Shown: positions 16,036 through 25,055 of the stretch, piece after piece
How the letters are laid out: every line of letters starts with the position of its first letter
How positions within the stretch are numbered: the first letter of the stretch is position 1
Assembly: GCA_964435665.1 (NCBI GenBank)
Contig: CAYSZW010000004.1
Location: 16,284 to 80,283, forward strand
Origin: an uncultured Gammaproteobacteria bacterium
GTDB lineage: Bacteria > Patescibacteriota > Microgenomatia > UBA1406 > GWC2-37-13
DNA length: 64,000 nt
Reading direction: 5' to 3'
Position numbers and translations under genes: made by a program
Notes under the pieces: generated by a model
The model's database searches: none
What the model was told of the DNA's origin: nothing
Seen by the model: the letters and a program-made list of their open reading frames with translations, nothing else

Positions 16036-16473
16036 TTACTCTTGTACCTCAGAGACTTCTACCCTTGGTGGAAGTGTAACTTGGTCAAGTGTGCGGTATT
16101 CAATTTTATATAAATCTTGATTTATATTTAAGTCTGTAAAGAAACGATTTACAGTCTGTACTGCAGCATTTTGATCACCTTGAAAATAAATAAGAAAGGT
16201 TCCACTTCTACTTTTATATTCCACAGTTATATCTTCAAATTTAATTGGATACAGTAATTCATTACGAATTTCTGGTGCGAGAGTTGGCACTATATAGTTA
16301 ATAACAACTGGTGTAATAGTGGGCAATGGTGAAGGTGTTACTGTAATAGGTAAACCATCTGGTCCTGTAGTCATTTGTAGTCTACTAATCATTACATAAA
16401 GAAATATGATTAATAGAATAATGCCGCCAATAATTAATATATATTTTTTATTATTCATATCTATAAAGTACAT
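16036..16473 (-). CDS. Small N-terminally TM-anchored protein (cassette partner of the SLT-like hydrolase)
   Basis: One TM helix (YILIIGGIILLIIFLYVMI), a Pro/Thr linker and a ~90-aa domain. The architecture parallels the ORF at 17360-17821. An alternative start at 16458 removes the overlap with the upstream gene. Confidence 0.6.
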   Translation of the reverse strand: MYFIDMNNKKYILIIGGIILLIIFLYVMISRLQMTTGPDGLPITVTPSPLPTITPVVINYIVPTLAPEIRNELLYPIKFEDITVEYKSRSGTFLIYFQGDQNAAVQTVNRFFTDLNINQDLYKIEYRTLDQVTLPPRVEVSEVQE

Positions 16474-17363
16474 TGGTGAATTATAAATTCACAATACGTA
16501 CGATTTCCTAAATGTTGAAATGGAGTTTTACATTCTCCAAAGTATCTTTTGCCAGCTTGAAAAATTGCATTTTGATCCCAATTCCTATTACCTGCTTGGG
16601 TTCCACTATCTTGTTTAAGTTTTTTTGCTGCAGCAAAAGTGCTGTCTCGTAAGTTACATACATTTGATTGATGACTGGCTCCATCATATTGATTTACCGC
16701 ATTGCCATATGAACCCCATGCATTAGGGCAAGAATTTAAACATTTTCCATTCCAACAGCATCGATTGCAAGAAGTTGAACCTCGTTCATCTGTTCCAATA
16801 GTCATTTGCATATGGCCTGCTGCAGAACAAGAATTCCATGGACAGTTTGGGATTTTTTGTCCAGGTTGAATATATTGATTAACTTGTTCAGGCGTATATT
16901 TTAAAACTGGAGTATATTCCATGTATGAAATTGCTTCAATAACACAGGTAGGAACTGAAACTTTTTGCCCGACATAATCATAAAAAGTTTGTATAGCTGT
17001 AAATGTTTGGTCTACCGGTTTTCCTCCAGGTGTTTGTGATGGAATAACATTTGTTGGAAATGGTGTTAATGAATTAAGTGGAGTTGGAATTGATGAAGGA
17101 TTTGTAGATGGCCCTGTAGAGTTGTTTCTAGGAGTACCTTCTGATCCATTCGTTCCACCTGTTGGTCTTTTAAAAAAAATATCTAAAAAATCTTCAAAAA
17201 TTTCATTAGAAGTTTTTTGCGTATCTCCAGGATTATAACAACGACCATCACCACTATCCATACAAGGTCTATCCGGGTTTTCCAGAGAGCCTGGCTGAGC
17301 AAATACAATATTATGTGAAAAAATAAATAAAATTAAGAGTAATAGAGTAATAATGTATTTCAT
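16461..17363 (-). CDS. Secreted Cys-rich protein: shared N-terminal module plus a lysozyme-like / SLT-like (lytic transglycosylase) C-terminal domain
   Basis: Signal peptide. The module [41 protein letters not shown] is shared with the 292-aa paralog. EAISYMEY ... SAAGHMQMT ... AGKRYFG resemble SLT motifs I-III (ES / GLMQ / AYNAG). The SLT call is motif-level only. Confidence 0.5.
   Translation of the reverse strand: MKYIITLLLLILFIFSHNIVFAQPGSLENPDRPCMDSGDGRCYNPGDTQKTSNEIFEDFLDIFFKRPTGGTNGSEGTPRNNSTGPSTNPSSIPTPLNSLTPFPTNVIPSQTPGGKPVDQTFTAIQTFYDYVGQKVSVPTCVIEAISYMEYTPVLKYTPEQVNQYIQPGQKIPNCPWNSCSAAGHMQMTIGTDERGSTSCNRCCWNGKCLNSCPNAWGSYGNAVNQYDGASHQSNVCNLRDSTFAAAKKLKQDSGTQAGNRNWDQNAIFQAGKRYFGECKTPFQHLGNRTYCEFIIHQCTL
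17172..17300. repeat. 129-nt repeat copy A (encodes the shared N-terminal module of the 300-aa protein)
   Basis: Aligned by eye to 18471-18599 with 10 mismatches in 129 nt (~92% identity) and no gaps. Flanking coding sequence is unrelated. Confidence 0.85.
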
Positions 17364-17821
17364 AAAGTTGACATTTCCATTATATTAAACTTCTCTTGAG
17401 GAATAGCTGAGAACTGGGCATTTATAAATGAATTAAAGTTATTTCTTGACTCAGTAATTGGATCTAAAATAATGACATCATATTGAAAGGTTTCGTAGTT
17501 ATATGTAATAGTAAAACCATTTCCATTAAATGGAGAAAGTTTATATAGTTCGGTATTTTGGTCAATTTCTGCTTGTTCTTCTGTGGTAAATTCTGGTTCC
17601 ACAAATCCTGTAAAATCTCCAGTTACTTCTGGTGTAGGAGCTTGTCCAATTGGAATAATTGAATTAGTACTACCTCCATTACGATTCATACTGAATAGAA
17701 GGGTAGCAATAAGTAATATAACTACAAATATAATTAAAGTAATAATAATTATTTTTTTATATTTTAAAATTGTATCTTGGTCCATATTATTTTCTTCTAA
17801 CTGCAGCTGCAAATGTAACAA
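17360..17821 (-). CDS. Small N-terminally TM-anchored protein (cassette partner of the C39-like peptidase)
   Basis: One TM helix (IIIITLIIFVVILLIATLLF) followed by a ~100-aa domain. A 4-nt ATGA overlap joins it to the downstream gene. An alternative start at 17785 (MDQDTILKYKK) lies 1 nt after the upstream stop. Confidence 0.6.
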   Translation of the reverse strand: MLHLQLQLEENNMDQDTILKYKKIIIITLIIFVVILLIATLLFSMNRNGGSTNSIIPIGQAPTPEVTGDFTGFVEPEFTTEEQAEIDQNTELYKLSPFNGNGFTITYNYETFQYDVIILDPITESRNNFNSFINAQFSAIPQEKFNIMEMSTL

Positions 17822-18665
17822 CTTGTAAATCTTTTATATATCTGTAATTTAATGGTCTTGTGTTACGGTCACCAAAAGTTGAATCTAATCCATAAATATC
17901 ATACTCTTTTCCATTTTTTACAATGTTTGTGATAACAAAAAAATGACCAACAGTTTTATTACCTAATGTAAAATTACCACCAGCTAAGATCCAAGAACCT
18001 GATTTTACAAATGGCATTAAATTATCTGCTACTTCTTGTGGTGTTCCTTTTTGAAAACCTGGAACTATTTCTGAGCGAAAACCTTCACCATTTAGAGCAA
18101 ACATTGCACCTTGAAGAGTACTTCCAGCACAGCTTGCATATCTCGTTTCACCATATTTTGAACCATAATATTTTGAAATAATACTCGGAGGTGTCGCATT
18201 AGGGTCTCCAAGATTAGCAACAATATTAGATACAGCAGAAGGTCCACAACCTGCATAGCAGATACTACAGCCATCCGGCATCATGATACTTTTATAATCA
18301 CATTGACGATTCATAATGTAACTACCTGGAACTGGAGTCGCAACAGGTGATAAGTTAGGTGTTGTTTGGTTAGGGAATTGTGTAGCACCAGATGGTCGAG
18401 GTGTTAATGTATTATTAGATCCGGAGTTATTTGTTGGATTAGAACTAGAGCCATCATTTTTAGGAGGTTTAAAAAAAATATCTAAAAAATCTTCAAAAAT
18501 TTCATTAGAAGTTTTTTTCTTATCTCCAGGATTATAACAACGACCATCACCACTATCCATACAAGGTCGATTGGGATTTTCCAGATTGTCAGGCTGAGCC
18601 AAAATTAAATTGGGGCTTAGGAAAAGTAAGAAAATAGAGATTGTGAATATAACTAATAGTTTCAT
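17787..18665 (-). CDS. Secreted protein: shared N-terminal module plus a papain-fold Cys peptidase (Peptidase_C39_2 / CHAP-like) domain
   Basis: Signal peptide and the same module as the 300-aa protein. Candidate Cys-His-Asp triad: [25 protein letters not shown]. The pattern also matches the C-terminal domain of the FtsEX-linked hydrolase at 54417. Confidence 0.55.
18471..18599. repeat. 129-nt repeat copy B (encodes the shared N-terminal module of the 292-aa protein)
   Basis: About 92% identical to 17172-17300. Confidence 0.85.
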
Positions 18666-18701: not shown

Positions 18702-21700
18702 ATGTCGAACATGTTTGATTTTATACGAAAAAAGCCATCTAATGCAAATCCAAATGGAGATGTATCAATAAATACAAATTCTCAAGTAAGTTCTGTGAGT
18801 GATACGCCACAGCCAATATCGGCACCAGTAACTCAATCATATAATGGTATTGGAAACCCACCAAGTGGACAGTCATTTAATGGAATTGGTACTCCACCAA
18901 ACGGCCAGTCATACAATGGTATCGGAAATCCTCCACAAGGTAATTCTTATAATGGTATTGGATCAACACCATCCGGACAAGATCCATATAACGGTGTAGG
19001 TTCAGCTCCAGCACCAAAAATGAATGACACCATGTCATCCCCTTCAAATGGACAAGATAGCAATGGTTCTATGAAACCAAAAGAAGATAAACCTGTATTT
19101 GATCAAATGCCAAAAGAAAAGAATGAATGGCAAGGTTTAGATTCATCAAAAAAAGATGCTAATCAAAATAAACCAACCGATCAAAAATCTAATAATCAAA
19201 GCGCAGATCAAAATAAACAATCAATGAATAATAATCAAAATGCACAAAAAGATCAAAATAATAAAAATCAGGATCAAAAGAATGTAGATAATAAAAATAA
19301 TTCTAATGCTCCAAAAGGTGATGCTCTTAAATCAAATATAAATGATAAAAAGCGAAATGATTTAGATATCATGACACACTTAACACAACGATCTAATAAA
19401 GTATTTTTAGAAGCAAATAATAAAGCAAAAGAATTAAAAAACACGTATGTTGATAGTGAACATTTATTACATGGATTACTTTCTGATGGAGAAATATATA
19501 ATGCATTTGTTGAATTAAAAATTCAACCTCAACTAATTGAACAAGAATTAGATAAGGTATATAAAAAAGAAACTAATAATAACCCACCACAAATTGCTCC
19601 TCGTGTAAAACAGATAATCAGTAATTCTCTAATTGTTGCACGTAAAATGGGTTATGAATTTATTTCACCAGAACATTTGTTACTTGCAATGTTTGATGAA
19701 GGTGAAGGGTTAGGTGCACGAATTTTAGTAAAACTTGGCTTGAAGAAAGAAGATTTAAATAAAAAAGTAACTGGTAAAAAAGAAGGTCTTGAAGGTAAAG
19801 ATGCAAAAGCACAACAAAAAGCAAAATCTGCATTAGAACAATACACAATTGACTTAACAGCAAGAGCTGCAAATGGTGAATTAGATCCAGTTGTTGAACG
19901 ATCTGACGTTATAGAACGTGTTGTCCATATTCTTTCAAGAAGAATTAAGAATAATCCTGCACTTATTGGAGAACCAGGTGTTGGTAAAACCGCTGTGGTA
20001 GAAGGGCTCGCAGAACGTATTGTTGCAAAACAAGTTCCAGAAAGTCTTTTAAACAAAAGAATTCTCCAATTAGATTTAGCAGGAGTCGTTGCTGGAGCCT
20101 CTCATAGAGGAGAATTTGAAGAGCGAATGAAAAATATTGTTGATGAACTTAAGGGTGCAAAAGGCGAAATAATTATGTTTATTGATGAAATGCACATGAT
20201 GATGGGTGCTGGCGGTGGAGATGGCACAATTGATGCTTCAAATTTTATAAAACCTGCTCTTGCCCGTGGTGAAGTTCAGTTTATTGGTGCAACTACCATT
20301 ACAGAATATAGAAAATATATAGAAAAAGATGCCGCTCTTGAACGAAGATTTCAAACAGTAGTTGTTCCTGAACCTTCACAAGAAGCAGCAATTAAAATGT
20401 TAAAGGCTGCAAAAGATAAGTACGAAGCATTTCATAAAGTCAAAATTCCAGAAGAAACAATCGAATTAGCAGTCAAACTTTCAAAAAGATATATTGGAGA
20501 TCGTTTCCTTCCAGATAAGGCATTTGATCTTATGGATGAAGCAGCAGCGGCAGTTAGATTACCATTAATTTCATTACCAGAAGAGATTCAATCGTTAGAA
20601 ACGCGTATCGCACAAATTCAACAAGAAGTTGATGAAGCAGAAAAAGGCGGGGAAAAAGTGAAAGCAAGAATAGGTCGCTCAAAAATTGATGATGTAAAAG
20701 CAACACTAAAGTCAAAGCAAGATGAATATAACATGAAGAAAGCCAGTACAACTACAGAAGTAACAGATGAAATTGTTAAAGATATAGTTGCAAAACGAAC
20801 TGGAATTCCTGTTTCAAGAATTTCTTCAACAGAAGGAGATAAATTAGTTAATTTAGAAGATATCATTCACAAACGAATGATTGATCAAGAAAATGCTGTT
20901 AAGTCTGTCTCACAAGCTATTAGAAGAGGACGAGCAGGATTAAAGTCAACAAATAGACCAATTGGAAGTTTTGTATTCCTAGGACCAACAGGTGTAGGTA
21001 AAACAGAACTAGCAAAAACAGTCTCAGAAGTGCTTTTTGATGAAGATGATGCAGTAATCCGTTTTGACATGACAGAATATATGGAACGTCATGAAGTTGC
21101 AAAACTTCTTGGACCTCCTCCAGGTTATGTTGGATATGAAGAAGGTGGAAAGCTTACAGAAATGGTTCGCAGAAAACCTTATTCCGTAGTCTTATTTGAC
21201 GAGGTAGAAAAAGCACATCCAGATATTTTCAATATCTTACTTCAAATTTTGGATGATGGACGTTTAACTGATAATAAAGGTCGAACAATTTCATTCAAAA
21301 ACACTGTTGTTATTTGTACTTCAAACATTGGTACAAAACTTATTCAAGAAGAAATGCTTAAGAGTGGAAAAACTGAAGTAAGTGAACCAACAATGATGTC
21401 TACATATGTATTTACGCCAAGAGGTAGAGAATTATTAACTATTGGTAACAAGTACTTTGAAAGAGATGGAGGCAATGTACAAGCATTAAATGCCCAAATG
21501 GATGCTTCAAAACAGCCACAACAAGCAGATGCAAAACCAGAAGATGCAACAAAAGCACCAACATCATCATGGGCTAATCACCAATTGAATGAATATTTTG
21601 CAGGACAAAAAGTTGAAGGTAAAATGCCTGAACCAATTAAAGAAGAAACTCAAGCAAATCCTGATGAACCAGCAACAGAAAAACCATTAGAAGAATTACC

Positions 21701-23039
21701 TGAAAAACCAAATGAGTCAATGAAGTCAGTTGGCTTTCCAATGATGGGTTACGATACACATGCAATTGCTGCAAATGGTTTAGAAATTGTCACAAAAGGC
21801 AATACACTATTCTCACGAAGTGCAACAACTGCAAAAGTATGGAATGTAACATCTCTTATAGAATATTTTAAAGATGGTGTTGTCATTAATGCTTTACCAG
21901 ATGCACCAGATGAACAATTGCCAACTGTTAAATTAAAAACACATGCTTTTAGTCCTACTGAAGAAGAAATCGTTACATTTAAAGACAGATATTGGAAAAG
22001 AAAAACAAATTCTACAGATTGGGAAACAGGTTACTTAAAAGATTATTTTAAAGATCAACCAATAACAGGAGAAATGACTCTTCCAACAACACATTGGGAT
22101 ATCCATACATTCTCACCTAATGGAAAAGAAGTAATTATAGTAGCAAATGATATTTGGTTTAGAGAAGGTACAGGTCCATGGAAGAAACAAGCATTAACTG
22201 AATATTTTGGAAAAGATTTCCCATTAGAACAAGAAGTAAATGCAAACCAAAAGGTAGAAGAAGAAAACGATACAAAGAAATATTCTCTTATTAAAGATAA
22301 GGTAATGAATGAACTCTTGAAGTTTTTCCGACCAGAGCTTGTAAATCGTTTTGATGAAGTTATTATCTTTGAGCCACTTAAGTTTATTCACATGATTGAG
22401 ATTGTTAAACTACAACTCAAAGGTTTAACCAAACTATTAGAAGAACAAGAATTAGGTTTTTCAGCAACAGATTCAGCTATTAAAGAAATTGTCCGTTCTG
22501 GTTTTGATCCAATCTTTGGAGCTCGACCATTACGAAGAGCAATTCAAAAATTAGTTGAGAATCCAATTTCAGAATTAATTATTGCTAAAAAAGTAACAGC
22601 AGGAGATACAATTATTGTTGATTTTAATGGTGAAGAATTTGTATTTAATGTTGAACACACAGAGCGAAAAGCAGTTTCAGGTGAAACCAAATCTGAAGGT
22701 ACAAATAAAGATGAAGTTGAAAAAATGTTTTTCTGTGAAAAATGTGCAAATACATTTACCACAAAAGTAAAATCTAATGCAACAACTGTCTGTTCAAAAT
22801 GTGCAAATAAAAATGTAACAGAAATTTCTGACCAATCACAACAAACAGTAAAAGATGCAACAACAGAAAAAAAGAATGAAGCAAAAACAGATATGAATTC
22901 TACTGCAGATCAAAAGAATTCACAGAATCCTATGAGTTCAGGTTCAAACGATATGAATACAATGCCATCAATGAATCCTACACCAAATACTCAAAATTCT
23001 GGAGATACAATGAATCAGCAGATGAATACCATGTCATAA
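18702..23039 (+). CDS. Atypical ClpC/ClpB-family double-AAA+ protein (1445 aa) with low-complexity termini, a large repeat insertion in D2 and a C-terminal zinc ribbon
   Basis: Clp_N repeats ([19 protein letters not shown]). D1 Walker A GEPGVGKT and Walker B MFIDEMH. Short ClpC-length M-domain. D2 Walker [13 protein letters not shown], Walker [11 protein letters not shown] and sensor-1 [10 protein letters not shown]2-small [18 protein letters not shown] and [10 protein letters not shown]. Insertion of ~316 aa at nt 21333-22277. CxxC...CxxC at 22731-22812. Confidence 0.85.
18837..19010 (+). repeat. In-frame 36-nt tandem repeat (12-aa unit S-Y/F-N-G-I-G-x-P-P-x-G-Q), 4 full copies plus 1 degenerate
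   Basis: Translation: [58 protein letters not shown]. Confidence 0.85.
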
Positions 23040-23046
23040 TGAACGT

Positions 23047-23193
23047 ATGGCCGATTTTACTCCATTAAACATATCATCTTTGCAGAAAAAGTTTGAAAAT
23101 GATGGTGGACTAAACACTATTCTTATTGTATTGGCTGTTGCGACAATGGGAGTTGTAGGATTTATTGTCTATCTTTTATCTTCTAAGTATTGA
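23047..23193 (+). CDS. Possible 48-aa single-pass membrane protein
   Basis: MADFTPLNISSLQKKFENDGGLNTILIVLAVATMGVVGFIVYLLSSKY. It begins 7 nt after the Clp-like stop, has one clear TM helix and is below the ORF-track cutoff. Confidence 0.35.
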   Translation: MADFTPLNISSLQKKFENDGGLNTILIVLAVATMGVVGFIVYLLSSKY

Positions 23194-23204
23194 TAAAATT
23201 ATAT

Positions 23205-23879
23205 ATGGACTGGGTTTTTTTTGTATTGTTTTGTATTCAACTAATTGTGCTTTTTTTTATCTCAAGACTTAGCATTCGGTATATTTTTTATTTGCTTCGT
23301 TCTTTTACCTCTAGTGATACTATTGTATATTCTTCAATTGCATTCTTATTTCTTCCAGGAACTATATTGCATGAACTAAGTCATTTTTTAATGGCAATAG
23401 TGTTGTTATTAAAAGTACGAGAAATACATATTTTTCCACAATGGGAACAGAATTATATTAAATTAGGTAGAGTTCTTTATGAAAAAAAAGATGTATTTAG
23501 AAGCATACTTGTGGGTATAGCTCCCATAATTGTAGGATTATTATTTTTTTGGTGGCTTAGTATATTAAATGTACTTCAGATAGAAGATATAATTTTAAAA
23601 ATAATTATTTTTTATATTATTTTTGTCATTTCTTCGACTATGTTTTCTTCTCAACAAGATTTAGTTGATCTTATTTATGTTATTCCAATAGTTATTATTG
23701 TTGCAATAATTCAATATTTTTTCCCAATAAATTTTTCATTTATAACTTCACAAGAAACTATTATGAAAAGTATTAATACTTTTATATATGATATTAATTG
23801 GTATTTATTTATTTCAACATGTATACATGCAGTACTGGTTAGTGTAATATTTATACTATTACGATTATTAAAAAAATAA
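23205..23879 (+). CDS. Polytopic membrane protein with an HExxH motif (putative intramembrane/zincin-like metallopeptidase)
   Basis: HELSHFLMA lies at the edge of a TM helix and there are ~5-6 hydrophobic helices. The ATG at 23205 is preferred over the listed TTG at 23190. Confidence 0.45.
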   Translation: MDWVFFVLFCIQLIVLFFISRLSIRYIFYLLRSFTSSDTIVYSSIAFLFLPGTILHELSHFLMAIVLLLKVREIHIFPQWEQNYIKLGRVLYEKKDVFRSILVGIAPIIVGLLFFWWLSILNVLQIEDIILKIIIFYIIFVISSTMFSSQQDLVDLIYVIPIVIIVAIIQYFFPINFSFITSQETIMKSINTFIYDINWYLFISTCIHAVLVSVIFILLRLLKK

Positions 23880-23880
23880 T

Positions 23881-24213
23881 ATGAACAATACTCTTGCTCA
23901 AGGTTTACAGATTCAACCAAAAGGTGGTGCAGCTGTTACTGTAACAGGTCCACTTGAAGGAATTAATAATTTAGGTGATTTAATTAATGTTCTCATGTCC
24001 TTTTTAGTACCTTTTGCTGGTATTATTCTCTTTTTTATTCTTATCTGGGGAGGATACGATATTTTAATGTCTCAAGGAGAAGCTGATAAAGTAGAATCAG
24101 GAAAAAATAAAATTACTGCTGGAATTATTGGTATTGTATTGCTTGTTCTTTCTTACTTAATTACCAATCTATTTGGATATATATTTGGACTAGATAGAAG
24201 TTTTTTTCAATAA
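23881..24213 (+). CDS. T4SS-pilin-like (TrbC/VirB2-type) small membrane protein
   Basis: 110 aa. Two TM helices flank a polar loop (SQGEADKVESGKNKITAG). It aligns with the C-terminus of the 546-aa protein through shared I[WY]..[YF]....SQ.......K..IT..I.G..L...S. Confidence 0.55.
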   Translation: MNNTLAQGLQIQPKGGAAVTVTGPLEGINNLGDLINVLMSFLVPFAGIILFFILIWGGYDILMSQGEADKVESGKNKITAGIIGIVLLVLSYLITNLFGYIFGLDRSFFQ

Positions 24214-24221
24214 GGAAGAAA

Positions 24222-25055
24222 TTAGAGATTATATTCTTTAATGGCCTTTTCGTAGTTATCTGGATTGCCTACATCATACCATTTGCCAGAAAATACAAAT
24301 CCACTTACTTTTTGTTGATTTACTAAATCTTGAATTACATCTTCTAATGCAAATTTATTCTTTTTTGGAAAGTAATTAAAAATTTCTGGACTAAAAGCAT
24401 AAATACCACTATGAATTAAGTGGCTTCGCAGTCCTGGTGCAGTTGTATTTGGATAAAATCCAATAAGTTTTGTTCCATGTAAATTAAATTGTCCGTATTC
24501 TCGAGGTTCTGTAGCACTTGATAATGCGACAGAAGCCAAAGCATCTTCTTTTTGGTGAAATGCGATAAAATCTGTATAAGAAAAATCTGTCAAAATATCT
24601 CCATGGATAACGAGGAATGTTTCGTTACCAATTTTATCTTTAACCTTTTTAATCGCACCACCAGTTAATAAATTTTCTTCTTCTTCTGAATACTGAATTT
24701 TTACACCAAATTGTTCGCCATTACCAAAATATGTCTTAATCTTTTCACCTAAATAACTTATTGCAATAATAAGATCGGTAACATTATGTTTTTTTAATTG
24801 TTTAATAAGATGTTCAAGAATTGGTGTTCCTTTTACAGGAAGCATTGGTTTTGGAATTTCGTAGGTATATGGTCGAAGTTGAGTTCCACGGCCGCCTGCA
24901 AGAATAATCGCTTTATGTACATTGGATTCTGTATACTTATTTAAGACAAATTCAATTGCGTGGGAACGGTTGCGAATTTTGTTTTTGTCGATAAGTAAAT
25001 CAACCTTTTTAAGTAGTTGACTATCGAGTGTTATAGTAATACGAGATCTCCTCAT
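24222..25055 (-). CDS. Sugar-phosphate nucleotidyltransferase with an N-terminal ribbon-helix-helix (CopG-like) domain
   Basis: RITITLDSQLLKKVDLLID...RSHAIEFVLNKY follows the RHH pattern (strand-helix-helix). AIILAGGRGTQLRPYTYEIPKPMLPV is the NTP_transferase signature. Confidence 0.75.
   Translation of the reverse strand: MRRSRITITLDSQLLKKVDLLIDKNKIRNRSHAIEFVLNKYTESNVHKAIILAGGRGTQLRPYTYEIPKPMLPVKGTPILEHLIKQLKKHNVTDLIIAISYLGEKIKTYFGNGEQFGVKIQYSEEEENLLTGGAIKKVKDKIGNETFLVIHGDILTDFSYTDFIAFHQKEDALASVALSSATEPREYGQFNLHGTKLIGFYPNTTAPGLRSHLIHSGIYAFSPEIFNYFPKKNKFALEDVIQDLVNQQKVSGFVFSGKWYDVGNPDNYEKAIKEYNL

What the first reader, a model, noticed from the sequence alone, without database searches (positions are those of the whole stretch)
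21333..22277. Four-repeat insertion of about 316 aa in the D2 AAA+ module of a ClpC-like protein, at the position of the ClpP-docking loop
Between sensor-1 (VVICTSNIG, ends nt 21332) and the helix preceding [11 protein letters not shown] (from ~22278), canonical ClpC/ClpB proteins have only about 30 residues by my recollection of B. subtilis ClpC. In ClpC that segment carries the [LIV]-G-[FL] ClpP-binding tripeptide. Here the segment is ~316 aa and contains four copies of a ~45-50 aa repeat. The consensus is roughly H-x-F-[ST]-P-x-G-x-E-[IV]-[IV]-x(3)-[ND]-x(2)-[FW]-x-R-x(4-6)-W-x(4)-L-x-[ED]-Y-F. The copies are [20 protein letters not shown]...[31 protein letters not shown]...[31 protein letters not shown]...[10 protein letters not shown] and [32 protein letters not shown], at approximately nt 21399-21620, 21753-21900, 21936-22080 and 22098-22235. 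An acidic Pro/Glu-rich linker and a VGF tripeptide (KSVGFPMMG) lie between repeats 1 and 2. A hexamer would display 24 copies of this module on the face that normally contacts ClpP. That implies either a new partner-docking platform or loss of protease coupling.
Basis: partly seen in the sequence, partly recalled or inferred. Interest (0 to 1): 0.65.

Follow-up and report, generated by a model that had tools for sequence, protein, structure and literature searches.

The report
Hemopexin-like propeller inside Clp ATPase
A protein-unfolding motor of the ClpC/ClpB type from an uncultured Roizmanbacteria-like bacterium carries a predicted four-bladed hemopexin-like beta-propeller at the spot where ClpC normally has its short protease-docking loop, an arrangement I could not find described and that probably gives the machine a new docking surface.

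Summary
One uninterrupted 1445-aa ORF (nt 18702-23039) encodes a two-ring Hsp100. About 306 residues (aa 882-1187) sit between D2 sensor-1 and the FRPE helix, where B. subtilis ClpC has 10 residues and T. thermophilus ClpB has 3. The insert holds four significant ~45-aa repeats.

AlphaFold2 folds them confidently into a four-bladed beta-propeller. The best PDB matches are hemopexin-fold proteins. The same blades occur in secreted CPR proteins, and one of those passes Pfam Hemopexin.

The insert is in frame in 57 orthologues that could be read across the whole D2 module, from 95 matching species-level genomes, mostly Roizmanbacteria. Seven species carry it duplicated.

It lies in a hypervariable loop, and only 10 of 58 orthologues have any [LIVM]-G-[FL] in the insert. 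Syntenic orthologues without the insert also lack a ClpP tripeptide, so that motif was absent before the propeller arrived.

The most conserved element is the blade 2-3 linker, [15 protein letters not shown].

Best reading: a ClpP-independent unfoldase that gained a propeller on its exit face as a docking or regulatory platform. The function is untested, and ClpP presence in these genomes was not checked.

The parts
18702..23039 (+). Whole gene: a 1445-aa class-I Hsp100. Order of parts: N-terminal low-complexity region, Clp_N, D1, ClpC-length M-domain, D2 with the propeller insert, D2-small, zinc ribbon, low-complexity tail.
   Evidence: One continuous ORF. Pfam and NCBIfam architecture. Walker A/B of both rings and the D2 GYVG pore loop are intact.
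20802..21332 (+). D2 large AAA+ subdomain up to sensor-1 (VVICTSNIG).
   Evidence: Aligns end to end with ClpB and ClpC D2 domains of solved structures. Mean pairwise identity among orthologues is 85%.
21333..21398 (+). N-terminal stalk: helix [10 protein letters not shown] plus a connector (aa 878-899) leading out of D2 into blade 1.
   Evidence: Helix at model residues 178-187. The same flank is found in orthologues without the insert.
21399..21617 (+). Blade 1 (aa 900-972). It is interrupted by a hypervariable low-complexity loop (aa 923-956, nt 21468-21569).
   Evidence: Strands in both AF2 models. Blade-HMM hit at E = 6e-4. Loop length is 3-102 aa with 12% identity.
21618..21734 (+). Acidic, Pro/Glu-rich hypervariable linker between blades 1 and 2 (aa 973-1011). 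It ends in the non-conserved VGF (nt 21729-21737).
   Evidence: Low pLDDT. Length is 3-47 aa with 17% identity. The VGF position is shared only by L003, L006 and L026.
21735..21875 (+). Blade 2 (aa 1012-1058): FPxxG[FY]-DTH...
   Evidence: pLDDT above 90. Blade-HMM E = 2e-21.
21876..21932 (+). Near-invariant blade 2-3 linker [19 protein letters not shown] (aa 1059-1077).
   Evidence: Mean pairwise identity 82%, with most positions of the NALPDxPxEQLPT core invariant. pLDDT is 51-57 in the isolated insert and 93-96 when D2 is present.
21933..22055 (+). Blade 3 (aa 1078-1118).
   Evidence: Blade-HMM E = 2e-24. pLDDT above 90.
22056..22094 (+). Variable connector between blades 3 and 4 (aa 1119-1131).
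   Evidence: 39% identity, length 3-48 aa.
22095..22217 (+). Blade 4 (aa 1132-1172).
   Evidence: Blade-HMM E = 6e-23. W1132, D1133 and H1135 are invariant.
22218..22325 (+). C-terminal stalk: a long helix (aa ~1175-1208) that returns to D2 and merges with the canonical helix before FRPELVNRF.
   Evidence: Helix at model residues 475-508. From aa ~1188 it aligns with ClpC and ClpB.
22326..22661 (+). Rest of D2: the [11 protein letters not shown] motif, D2-small and sensor-2 (GARPLRR).
   Evidence: Pfam ClpB_D2-small. PDB alignments.

Best explanation
The gene encodes an ATP-driven, two-ring Hsp100 unfoldase of ClpC-like build (Clp_N, D1, short M-domain, D2). Its lineage has no ClpP-docking tripeptide.

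In one sub-lineage of Microgenomates (Roizmanbacteria and relatives), a four-bladed hemopexin-like beta-propeller was inserted into the surface loop of D2 between sensor-1 and the helix that leads to the [11 protein letters not shown] motif. This is the loop that carries the ClpP-docking tripeptide in ClpA and ClpC. The propeller probably came from the repertoire of secreted repeat proteins in the same radiation.

Each protomer carries one propeller, mounted on two helical stalks. A hexamer would therefore display six propellers on the D2 (exit) face.

Inferred mechanism: the propeller is a protein or ligand docking platform on the exit face, and the near-invariant blade 2-3 linker [15 protein letters not shown] is its key functional or mounting element. 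In ClpA, ClpC and ClpX, partner contact at this position is coupled to the motor. Partner binding to the propeller could act in the same way and tune D2 ATPase and translocation.

Shown here: the insert, its boundaries, its repeats, the predicted fold, its conservation, and the absence of a conserved ClpP tripeptide both with and without the insert.

Inferred only: the position on the exit face of a hexamer, the docking or regulatory role, and independence from ClpP.
For: - Continuous ORF with intact ATPase and D2 pore-loop motifs.
- Boundaries against solved ClpC and ClpB: 306 aa replace 10 and 3 residues respectively.
- Repeats are significant.
- AF2 model of the insert: pLDDT 79, pTM 0.73, four strands per repeat. 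AF2 model of D2 plus insert: pLDDT 88.5, pTM 0.80.
- Foldseek top 14 PDB hits are all hemopexin-fold four-bladed propellers (E ~3e-7, TM 0.68 on target length).
- In 1.84 billion representatives, the insert profile finds only 48 proteins. These are Clp proteins plus secreted CPR proteins (DUF2961, GH39/42-like, dockerin) with 3-4 copies of the same blade.
- Of these, P0043 passes Pfam Hemopexin (24.0 bits against a cut-off of 21.3), and P0034 hits the MMP-14 PEX domain at E = 1e-4.
- 95 species-level genomes carry the insert. 57 were read in one frame across the whole D2 module.
- Blades are 54-75% identical and the linker 82%, against 85% for the AAA+ core. The loops are hypervariable.
- Only 10 of 58 orthologues have any [LIVM]-G-[FL] in the insert.
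- The closest relatives without the insert (63-73% identical in D2) lack the tripeptide too, while true ClpC hits have VGF or LGF. One such relative, L083, sits at the same syntenic position.
Against: - Function is untested.
- The fold is a prediction. The sequence link to Pfam Hemopexin is only transitive: the insert itself gives no Pfam hit at E <= 10, and a blade profile built from Clp inserts alone does not reach hemopexin chains in the PDB.
- The rise in linker pLDDT with D2 present could be an alignment effect.
- No D2 residues are clearly co-adapted to the insert.
- Presence or absence of clpP in these genomes was not established. Only ~0.9 Mb of local neighbourhoods was searched.
- The window and three relatives do have [VLI]-G-F in a flexible linker.
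Confidence: 0.5

Rival explanations
1. ClpP coupling is retained. A degenerate docking motif is presented from a flexible loop and reaches ClpP pockets between or around the propellers. The motif would be either the conserved G-[FY] just before blade 2 or the [VLI]-G-F of the window's sub-clade.
For: The insert sits exactly at the ClpP-loop position. P and G of FPxxG[FY] are invariant. The window, L003, L006 and L026 have V/L/I-G-F in a low-pLDDT linker.
Against: The residue before the conserved Gly is mostly H, F or Q (HGF 16, FGY 10, QGF 10), not aliphatic. FPxxG[FY]D-TH in blade 2 parallels FPxx[HY]WD-IH in blade 4, so it is a structural part of the blade. The linker holding VGF shrinks to 3 residues in some orthologues. 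Orthologues without the insert have no tripeptide at all. Six propellers on that face would probably hinder docking; this last point is inference.
Confidence: 0.1
2. The propeller controls assembly state. It would bridge neighbouring protomers to stabilise the hexamer, or mediate tail-to-tail stacking of two hexamers into a storage or resting form, rather than binding an external partner.
For: From general knowledge, some hemopexin domains self-associate; the hit list includes a dimeric MMP-9 PEX entry (1itv). Six ~45-Å domains around the D2 exit would be close enough to touch (geometric inference). The invariant linker becomes ordered only when D2 is present.
Against: Nothing was tested directly. 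Orthologues without the insert evidently function without it, and their D2 core is almost unchanged: 76% identity between the two groups against 80% within each.
Confidence: 0.15
3. The propeller is a sensor for a small ligand or metal. A ligand bound in the central channel would be relayed through the two stalks to sensor-1 and the downstream D2 catalytic elements, gating ATPase activity.
For: Equivalent positions on the first strand of the four blades are conserved: Tyr902 (48/51), His1020 (45/51), His1081 (49/51) and His1135 (51/51). From general knowledge, hemopexin-fold propellers bind ions in the central channel and some bind haem or polyamines. The insert lies between sensor-1 and the [11 protein letters not shown] motif.
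Against: Model coordinates could not be inspected, so it is not shown that the His side chains converge. The conserved residues may simply be structural. The strongest conservation is in the linker, not the channel.
Confidence: 0.15
4. The insert is a tolerated passenger domain in a permissive surface loop, with no specific function.
For: The site tolerates variable spacers of 10-40 aa in insert-free orthologues. The D2 core shows no clear co-adaptation.
Against: The insert is kept in frame across 95 species-level genomes. Blades are 54-75% identical and the linker 82%, while the adjacent loops drift freely to 12-17%. The whole unit has been duplicated and retained in seven species.
Confidence: 0.07
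5. The insert is an assembly or annotation artefact: frameshift-joined ORFs, a chimeric contig, or an intein-like element.
For: Three metagenome contigs (L001, L083, L084) do show frameshifts within the gene.
Against: Those frameshifts lie upstream of the insert, at Walker B of D2 or between D1 and D2, not at its borders. 57 independent assemblies read straight through the D2 module. The insert folds as a compact propeller with adjacent entry and exit helices, and an intein would not be expected to fold as a propeller.
Confidence: 0.01

Closest known systems
ClpC (B. subtilis, S. aureus; PDB 3J3T, 6EM8)
   Same: Same domain order. The distance from the D1 Walker A to the start of D2 is within one residue of B. 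subtilis ClpC, which means a ClpC-length M-domain. D2 scores 366 bits against ClpC.
   Different: ClpC has a 10-residue loop with V-G-F that docks ClpP. Here 306 residues forming a propeller occupy that site and no conserved tripeptide exists. This protein also has His in place of the D1 pore-loop Tyr, a long N-terminal low-complexity region and a C-terminal zinc ribbon.
ClpB / Hsp104, ClpP-independent disaggregases (PDB 1QVR, 4LJ4)
   Same: Best NCBIfam match (TIGR03346, 912 bits). No ClpP tripeptide. D2 is equally similar (368 bits).
   Different: The score is below the ClpB equivalog cut-off of 1232. The M-domain is ClpC-length, not the long ClpB coiled coil. ClpB has only about 3 residues at the insertion site.
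Hemopexin-fold (PEX) four-bladed propellers: plant seed albumins 3OYO, 3LP9 and 6IX1, haemopexin 1QJS, vitronectin 6O5E, MMP C-terminal domains
   Same: Four ~45-aa blades of four strands each. Best structural matches have E ~3e-7 and TM 0.68 on target length. Bridging homologues reach Pfam PF00045 and the MMP-14 PEX domain by sequence.
   Different: About 9% sequence identity and no direct Pfam match. The domain is cytoplasmic and nested inside an AAA+ module. Forty of 51 inserts have no Cys, so the blade 1-blade 4 disulfide I recall from MMP PEX domains is not conserved. The first-strand signature is D/K-T-H rather than the D-A-A I recall for hemopexin repeats. There are two long low-complexity loops and an extended invariant blade 2-3 linker.
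Secreted CPR repeat proteins: DUF2961 proteins of Beckwithbacteria, a GH39 hydrolase of Dojkabacteria, and dockerin-containing proteins (P0035, P0042, P0050 and others)
   Same: Same blade family. Library-wide E = 1e-14 to 1e-6 against the insert profile, with 3-4 blade-HMM hits each.
   Different: They have N-terminal signal-peptide-like sequences, and the propeller is a C-terminal or internal module next to glycoside-hydrolase-like domains. They are not AAA+ proteins and lack the [13 protein letters not shown] linker.
ClpX IGF loops, ClpA IGL loops and ClpC VGF loops (functional analogy)
   Same: Same topological position on the exit face of the last AAA+ ring, between sensor-1 and the following helix. 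In those proteins this is the partner-coupling element (general knowledge; PMC3999925 for ClpC).
   Different: Those are short flexible peptides that plug into ClpP pockets. This is a folded ~200-residue domain with no conserved tripeptide.

Membership tests
ClpC (ClpP-coupled class-I Hsp100) | Clp_N domain plus two AAA+ modules with Walker A/B motifs. | tested here: met
   Pfam Clp_N, AAA, AAA_lid_9, AAA_2 and ClpB_D2-small. Motifs located.
ClpC (ClpP-coupled class-I Hsp100) | Short, single coiled-coil M-domain. | tested here: met
   The offset window minus B. subtilis ClpC is 215 at the D1 Walker A (G423 against G208) and 216 at the start of D2 (701 against 485), so the D1 plus M length is the same.
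ClpC (ClpP-coupled class-I Hsp100) | [LIV]-G-[FL] ClpP-docking tripeptide in the D2 loop after sensor-1. | tested here: not met
   Only 10 of 58 orthologues have any such tripeptide in the insert, at inconsistent positions. Insert-free orthologues have none, while genuine ClpC hits have VGF or LGF.
ClpC (ClpP-coupled class-I Hsp100) | Physical and functional coupling to ClpP, and a clpP gene in the genome. | not testable with these tools
   No ClpP in the window's ClpP-sized ORFs or in ~0.9 Mb of window plus loci. Whole genomes could not be scanned.
ClpB | Score above the NCBIfam equivalog cut-off (TIGR03346) and a long M-domain. | tested here: not met
   912 bits against a cut-off of 1232. 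The M-domain is ClpC-length.
ClpB | No ClpP-docking tripeptide. | tested here: met
Hemopexin-like repeat / PEX domain (Pfam PF00045) | Four tandem ~45-aa repeats, each a four-stranded blade. | tested here: met
   Repeat statistics. Four strands per repeat in two AF2 models. Four blade-HMM hits.
Hemopexin-like repeat / PEX domain (Pfam PF00045) | Four-bladed beta-propeller fold that superposes on solved PEX domains. | tested here: met
   Foldseek top 14 hits are all hemopexin-fold, E 3e-7 to 3e-5, TM up to 0.68 on target length. The query is a predicted model, not an experimental structure.
Hemopexin-like repeat / PEX domain (Pfam PF00045) | Sequence match to Pfam Hemopexin at the gathering threshold. 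| tested here: inconclusive
   The insert itself gives no Pfam hit at E <= 10, and the Clp-only blade profile finds no PEX chain. The homologue P0043 (E = 8e-10 to the insert profile) scores 24.0 against a cut-off of 21.3, and P0034 hits MMP-14 PEX at E = 1e-4.
Hemopexin-like repeat / PEX domain (Pfam PF00045) | Disulfide tying blade 1 to blade 4, as I recall for MMP PEX domains. | tested here: not met
   No Cys in the window's insert, and none in 40 of 51 orthologues.

The most novel reading that the evidence does not exclude
Six hemopexin-like propellers form a third, non-ATPase tier under the D2 ring. This tier would be a new kind of exit-side coupling device for an AAA+ unfoldase. Through the invariant [13 protein letters not shown] element, or through the Tyr/His-lined channel, it would dock a non-ClpP partner and hand over or hold the translocated chain. 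Candidate partners include the conserved downstream HExxH membrane protein or the pilin-like assembly system. Such a device would replace peptide-in-pocket docking of the IGF type with domain-level docking.
Probability: 0.12. Interest if true: 0.85.

Novelty: new variant of a known kind. Interest (0 to 1): 0.64.

Why it matters
From general knowledge, Hsp100/Clp unfoldases recognise substrates and adaptors at the N-terminal, D1 or M-domain side and use the D2 exit face only for short ClpP-docking loops. A folded, strongly conserved propeller on the exit face, between catalytic elements of D2, would be a different way of coupling an AAA+ motor to its surroundings.

The case has a natural control. 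Syntenic orthologues that differ essentially only by the insert (76% identity in the D2 core) allow a direct swap experiment.

It also shows a eukaryote-associated fold (hemopexin/PEX) being used in CPR bacteria both outside the cell, on glycoside-hydrolase-like proteins, and inside an ATPase. That bears on how new domain architectures arise in these reduced genomes.

Full-text searches found no prior description.

Tried and rejected
- blastp of the insert against itself found only the self-hit, because the repeats are too divergent. Shuffle-controlled Smith-Waterman was used instead.
- All protein-search hits were shorter than 600 aa and at first suggested a gene split at the insert. Inspection showed a frameshift upstream in L001 and a contig-end truncation in L002, not a split at the insert.
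Shallower alignments of database hits were used.
- Pfam on the insert at E <= 10 found nothing.
- A single-blade profile from Clp inserts against PDB sequences found no hemopexin chain. The best hit was Ycf48 at E = 0.017.
- ClpP search: ten ClpP-sized window ORFs are other proteins. This is local context only and is not evidence that ClpP is absent.
- Literature searches on ClpC/ClpP in CPR, on hemopexin in AAA+ or CPR, and on propeller insertions returned nothing relevant. The Nannochloropsis clpC paper is unrelated.
- A search for D2 residues co-adapted to the insert found none under strict criteria and only three weak ones under relaxed criteria.
- An intein or mobile-element reading was rejected because the segment is predicted to fold as a compact propeller.
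- The idea that conserved synteny with the HExxH membrane protein and the pilin-like gene is specific to the insert was rejected. Insert-free orthologues share it.


Full report
**1. The observation**

The window (GC about 32%) holds one continuous ORF of 1445 aa at nt 18702-23039 on the + strand.

Pfam finds two Clp_N repeats, the D1 AAA module, AAA_lid_9, the D2 AAA_2 module (aa 752-892) and ClpB_D2-small (aa 1230-1306). About 340 residues between the last two are unassigned. NCBIfam's best models are ClpB, ClpK, ClpG and ClpA, all below their curated cut-offs.

Sensor-1 (VVICTSNIG) ends at nt 21332 and FRPELVNRF starts at nt 22326.

phmmer against PDB chains gives objective boundaries. Window aa 882-1187 (nt 21345-22262, 306 aa) stand where B. 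subtilis ClpC has residues 666-675. In close ClpC homologues that stretch reads KQNKYVGFNI, the ClpP loop. T. thermophilus ClpB has three residues there.

The four repeats are statistically real. All six pairwise comparisons beat 1000 of 1000 shuffles, with z between 6.3 and 11.4. An HMM built from blades 2-4 of orthologues recovers all four repeats in the window.

**2. Not an artefact, and conserved**

A search of 5.8 billion proteins with the insert returned only 17 hits. All came from Microgenomates or Patescibacteria sources and all were short.

The short lengths at first suggested a split gene. The contigs show otherwise. L001 has a frameshift in the D2 Walker B box, upstream of the insert. 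L002's gene simply runs off the contig start and reads in one frame from D2 through the insert.

A scan of one genome per GTDB species found 95 genomes that encode the insert. Most are labelled Roizmanbacteria, Microgenomates or Patescibacteria. The many "uncultured Gammaproteobacteria" titles look like bulk mislabels. Of the 80 loci kept, 57 could be read in one frame across the whole D2 module, mostly within ORFs of 1200-1620 aa.

Conservation is uneven in an informative way:
- AAA+ core: 85% mean pairwise identity.
- Blades: 54-75%.
- Blade 2-3 linker [19 protein letters not shown]: 82%.
- The loop inside blade 1 and the acidic blade 1-2 linker: 12-17% identity, with lengths of 3-102 and 3-47 residues.

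Seven species carry a tandem duplication of the whole four-blade unit, giving 8-9 blade hits.

**3. What the insert is**

AlphaFold2 on the insert alone (17-sequence alignment) gives pLDDT 79 and pTM 0.73. Each repeat forms four strands and a short helix.

Foldseek against the PDB puts hemopexin-fold four-bladed propellers in the top 14 places. These are the plant albumins 3OYO, 6IX1 and 3LP9, haemopexin, vitronectin and MMP PEX domains. E-values run from 3e-7 to 3e-5 and TM reaches 0.68 on target length, at about 9% identity.

An exhaustive HMM search of 1.84 billion representatives with the insert-only profile finds just 48 proteins. The strong hits are Clp proteins. The weaker but significant ones (E = 1e-14 to 1e-6) are proteins with N-terminal signal-peptide-like sequences that carry DUF2961, GH39/42-like or dockerin domains and 3-4 tandem copies of the same blade. 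Where the source names them, they come from Beckwithbacteria and Dojkabacteria, which are also CPR lineages.

Two of these bridge to the hemopexin family by sequence:
- P0043 passes Pfam Hemopexin (24.0 bits against a cut-off of 21.3).
- P0034 hits the MMP-14 hemopexin domain at E = 1e-4.

The Clp insert itself has no direct Pfam match, and a Clp-only blade profile does not reach PEX chains. I therefore call it a divergent hemopexin-like propeller. The fold match is direct and the sequence link is transitive.

**4. How it sits in D2**

A model of D2 plus insert (85-sequence alignment) has pLDDT 88.5 and pTM 0.80. The chain leaves D2 through the helix [10 protein letters not shown] and returns through a 34-residue helix that merges with the canonical helix before FRPE.

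The invariant linker has pLDDT 51-57 in the isolated insert and 93-96 when D2 is present. This hints that it packs against the AAA+ body or a fixed interface. Coordinates could not be inspected, so this is inference.

Equivalent first-strand positions of the four blades are Tyr902, His1020, His1081 and His1135, each conserved in 45-51 of 51 orthologues. In hemopexin folds these strands line the central channel (general knowledge).

**5. The ClpP question**

Most orthologues have E/D-F-P at that position. Only 10 of 58 have any [LIVM]-G-[FL] in the insert.

The conserved FPxxG[FY]D-TH before blade 2 mirrors FPxx[HY]WD-IH before blade 4. It is therefore part of the blade and not a docking loop.

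A search with the insert deleted found close relatives (63-73% identical, one named as Roizmanbacteria) that share the same flanks. They have only a 10-40-residue Lys/Ser-rich spacer with no tripeptide. Genuine ClpC hits in the same list have VGF or LGF.

One such insert-free gene sits at the same syntenic position: clp, T4SS-pilin-like, AA_kinase, SMC, S24, EF-G, S7, S12, rpoC. It shares the other lineage peculiarities as well: His in place of the D1 pore-loop Tyr, and the C-terminal zinc ribbon.

So the propeller was plugged into an orthologous gene that already lacked the ClpP motif. D2-core identity between the two groups (76%) is almost the same as within each group (80%), and no clear co-adapted positions were found.

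Whether these genomes encode ClpP could not be determined. There is none in the window's candidate ORFs or in 0.9 Mb of neighbourhoods.

**6. Mechanism**

Best-supported reading (confidence 0.5): this is an active, ClpP-independent ClpC-like unfoldase. Its exit face carries six hemopexin-like propellers that act as a docking or regulatory platform, and the [13 protein letters not shown] element is the key conserved feature. In ClpA, ClpC and ClpX the same position is the partner-coupling element, so binding events at the propeller could tune D2 in a similar way.

The fold, boundaries, conservation and absence of the tripeptide are shown. Hexamer geometry and function are inferred.

Rivals:
- A retained degenerate ClpP loop (0.10).
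- Control of assembly state (0.15).
- A ligand or metal sensor acting through the His/Tyr-lined channel (0.15).
- A neutral passenger domain (0.07).
- An artefact (0.01).

**7. Comparison and novelty**

In architecture the protein is ClpC-like. The distance from the D1 Walker A to the start of D2 matches B. subtilis ClpC within one residue. It fails ClpC's defining ClpP tripeptide and it fails the ClpB equivalog cut-off.

The insert matches the hemopexin fold but not the Pfam model directly.

Full-text searches found no description of a propeller, or of any folded domain, inserted at this D2 site, and no report of hemopexin-like domains in CPR bacteria.

I rate it a new variant of a known kind: an Hsp100 with a new accessory domain in an unprecedented position. 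Interest is 0.64.

Noticed in passing
window 20091-20120 (aa 464-473): The D1 pore loop reads [10 protein letters not shown], so the canonical Tyr of K-Y-R is replaced by His. The same holds in 55 of 55 insert-bearing orthologues and in the insert-free orthologues L083 and L084. The D2 pore loop GYVG is normal.
   Followed up: partly
window 18702-19376 (aa 1-225): There is a long N-terminal low-complexity extension ahead of Clp_N, with tandem G-x-S-[FY]-N-G-I-G-x-P-P repeats followed by an N/Q/K-rich tract. The length before the D1 Walker A varies from 185 to 493 aa among orthologues.
   Followed up: partly
window 22734-22802 (aa 1345-1367) and the tail to 23036: A C-terminal C4 zinc ribbon (CEKC-x15-CSKC), with a weak Pfam Zn_ribbon_8 match, is followed by a low-complexity tail. 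It is present in 51 of 57 full-length orthologues and in insert-free orthologues. This is unusual for a ClpB/ClpC-type protein.
   Followed up: partly
window 23190-23879 and 23881-24213: Two same-strand downstream genes are conserved: a 229-aa polytopic membrane protein with an HELSH (HExxH-type) motif and no Pfam match (detected in 33 of 51 loci), and a 110-aa T4SS_pilin-like protein (49 of 51 loci). The pilin-like gene overlaps the clp stop codon in L083. Insert-free orthologues share them, so they are not specific to the propeller.
   Followed up: partly
window 16461-17363 and 17787-18665 (- strand): Two divergently oriented paralogous proteins with signal-peptide-like N-termini (300 and 292 aa) share an N-terminal Cys-containing motif, [20 protein letters not shown]..[16 protein letters not shown]. 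Neither has a Pfam match.
   Followed up: no
L001 ~2380-2400; L083 ~770; L084 6488-6544: Three metagenome contigs have the clp gene broken by frameshifts, in the D2 Walker B box or between D1 and D2. These may be assembly errors in AT-rich runs or real pseudogenes. This was not resolved.
   Followed up: partly
L066, L071, L075, L078, L079, L080, L081 (D2 modules of 833-867 aa): Seven species carry a tandem duplication of the whole blade unit, including a second copy of the NA[LF]PDAPEEQLPT-like linker. That is enough blades for two four-bladed propellers, the same two-domain arrangement as haemopexin itself.
   Followed up: partly
window aa 902, 1020, 1081, 1135 (nt 21405-21407, 21759-21761, 21942-21944, 22104-22106): Tyr, His, His and His are conserved at the equivalent first-strand position of blades 1-4. 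They form a candidate ligand or metal site in the central channel.
   Followed up: partly
protein-search outputs: Every hit returned by the search for homologous proteins was shorter than 600 aa, even for ordinary ClpB. The listing therefore seems to lack long proteins. Full-length orthologues had to be recovered from genome loci and from the representative library (P0020, 1431 aa).
   Followed up: no
window 24222-25055 (- strand): A nucleotidyl-transferase gene carries an N-terminal ribbon-helix-helix (CopG-like) domain, an uncommon fusion.
   Followed up: no
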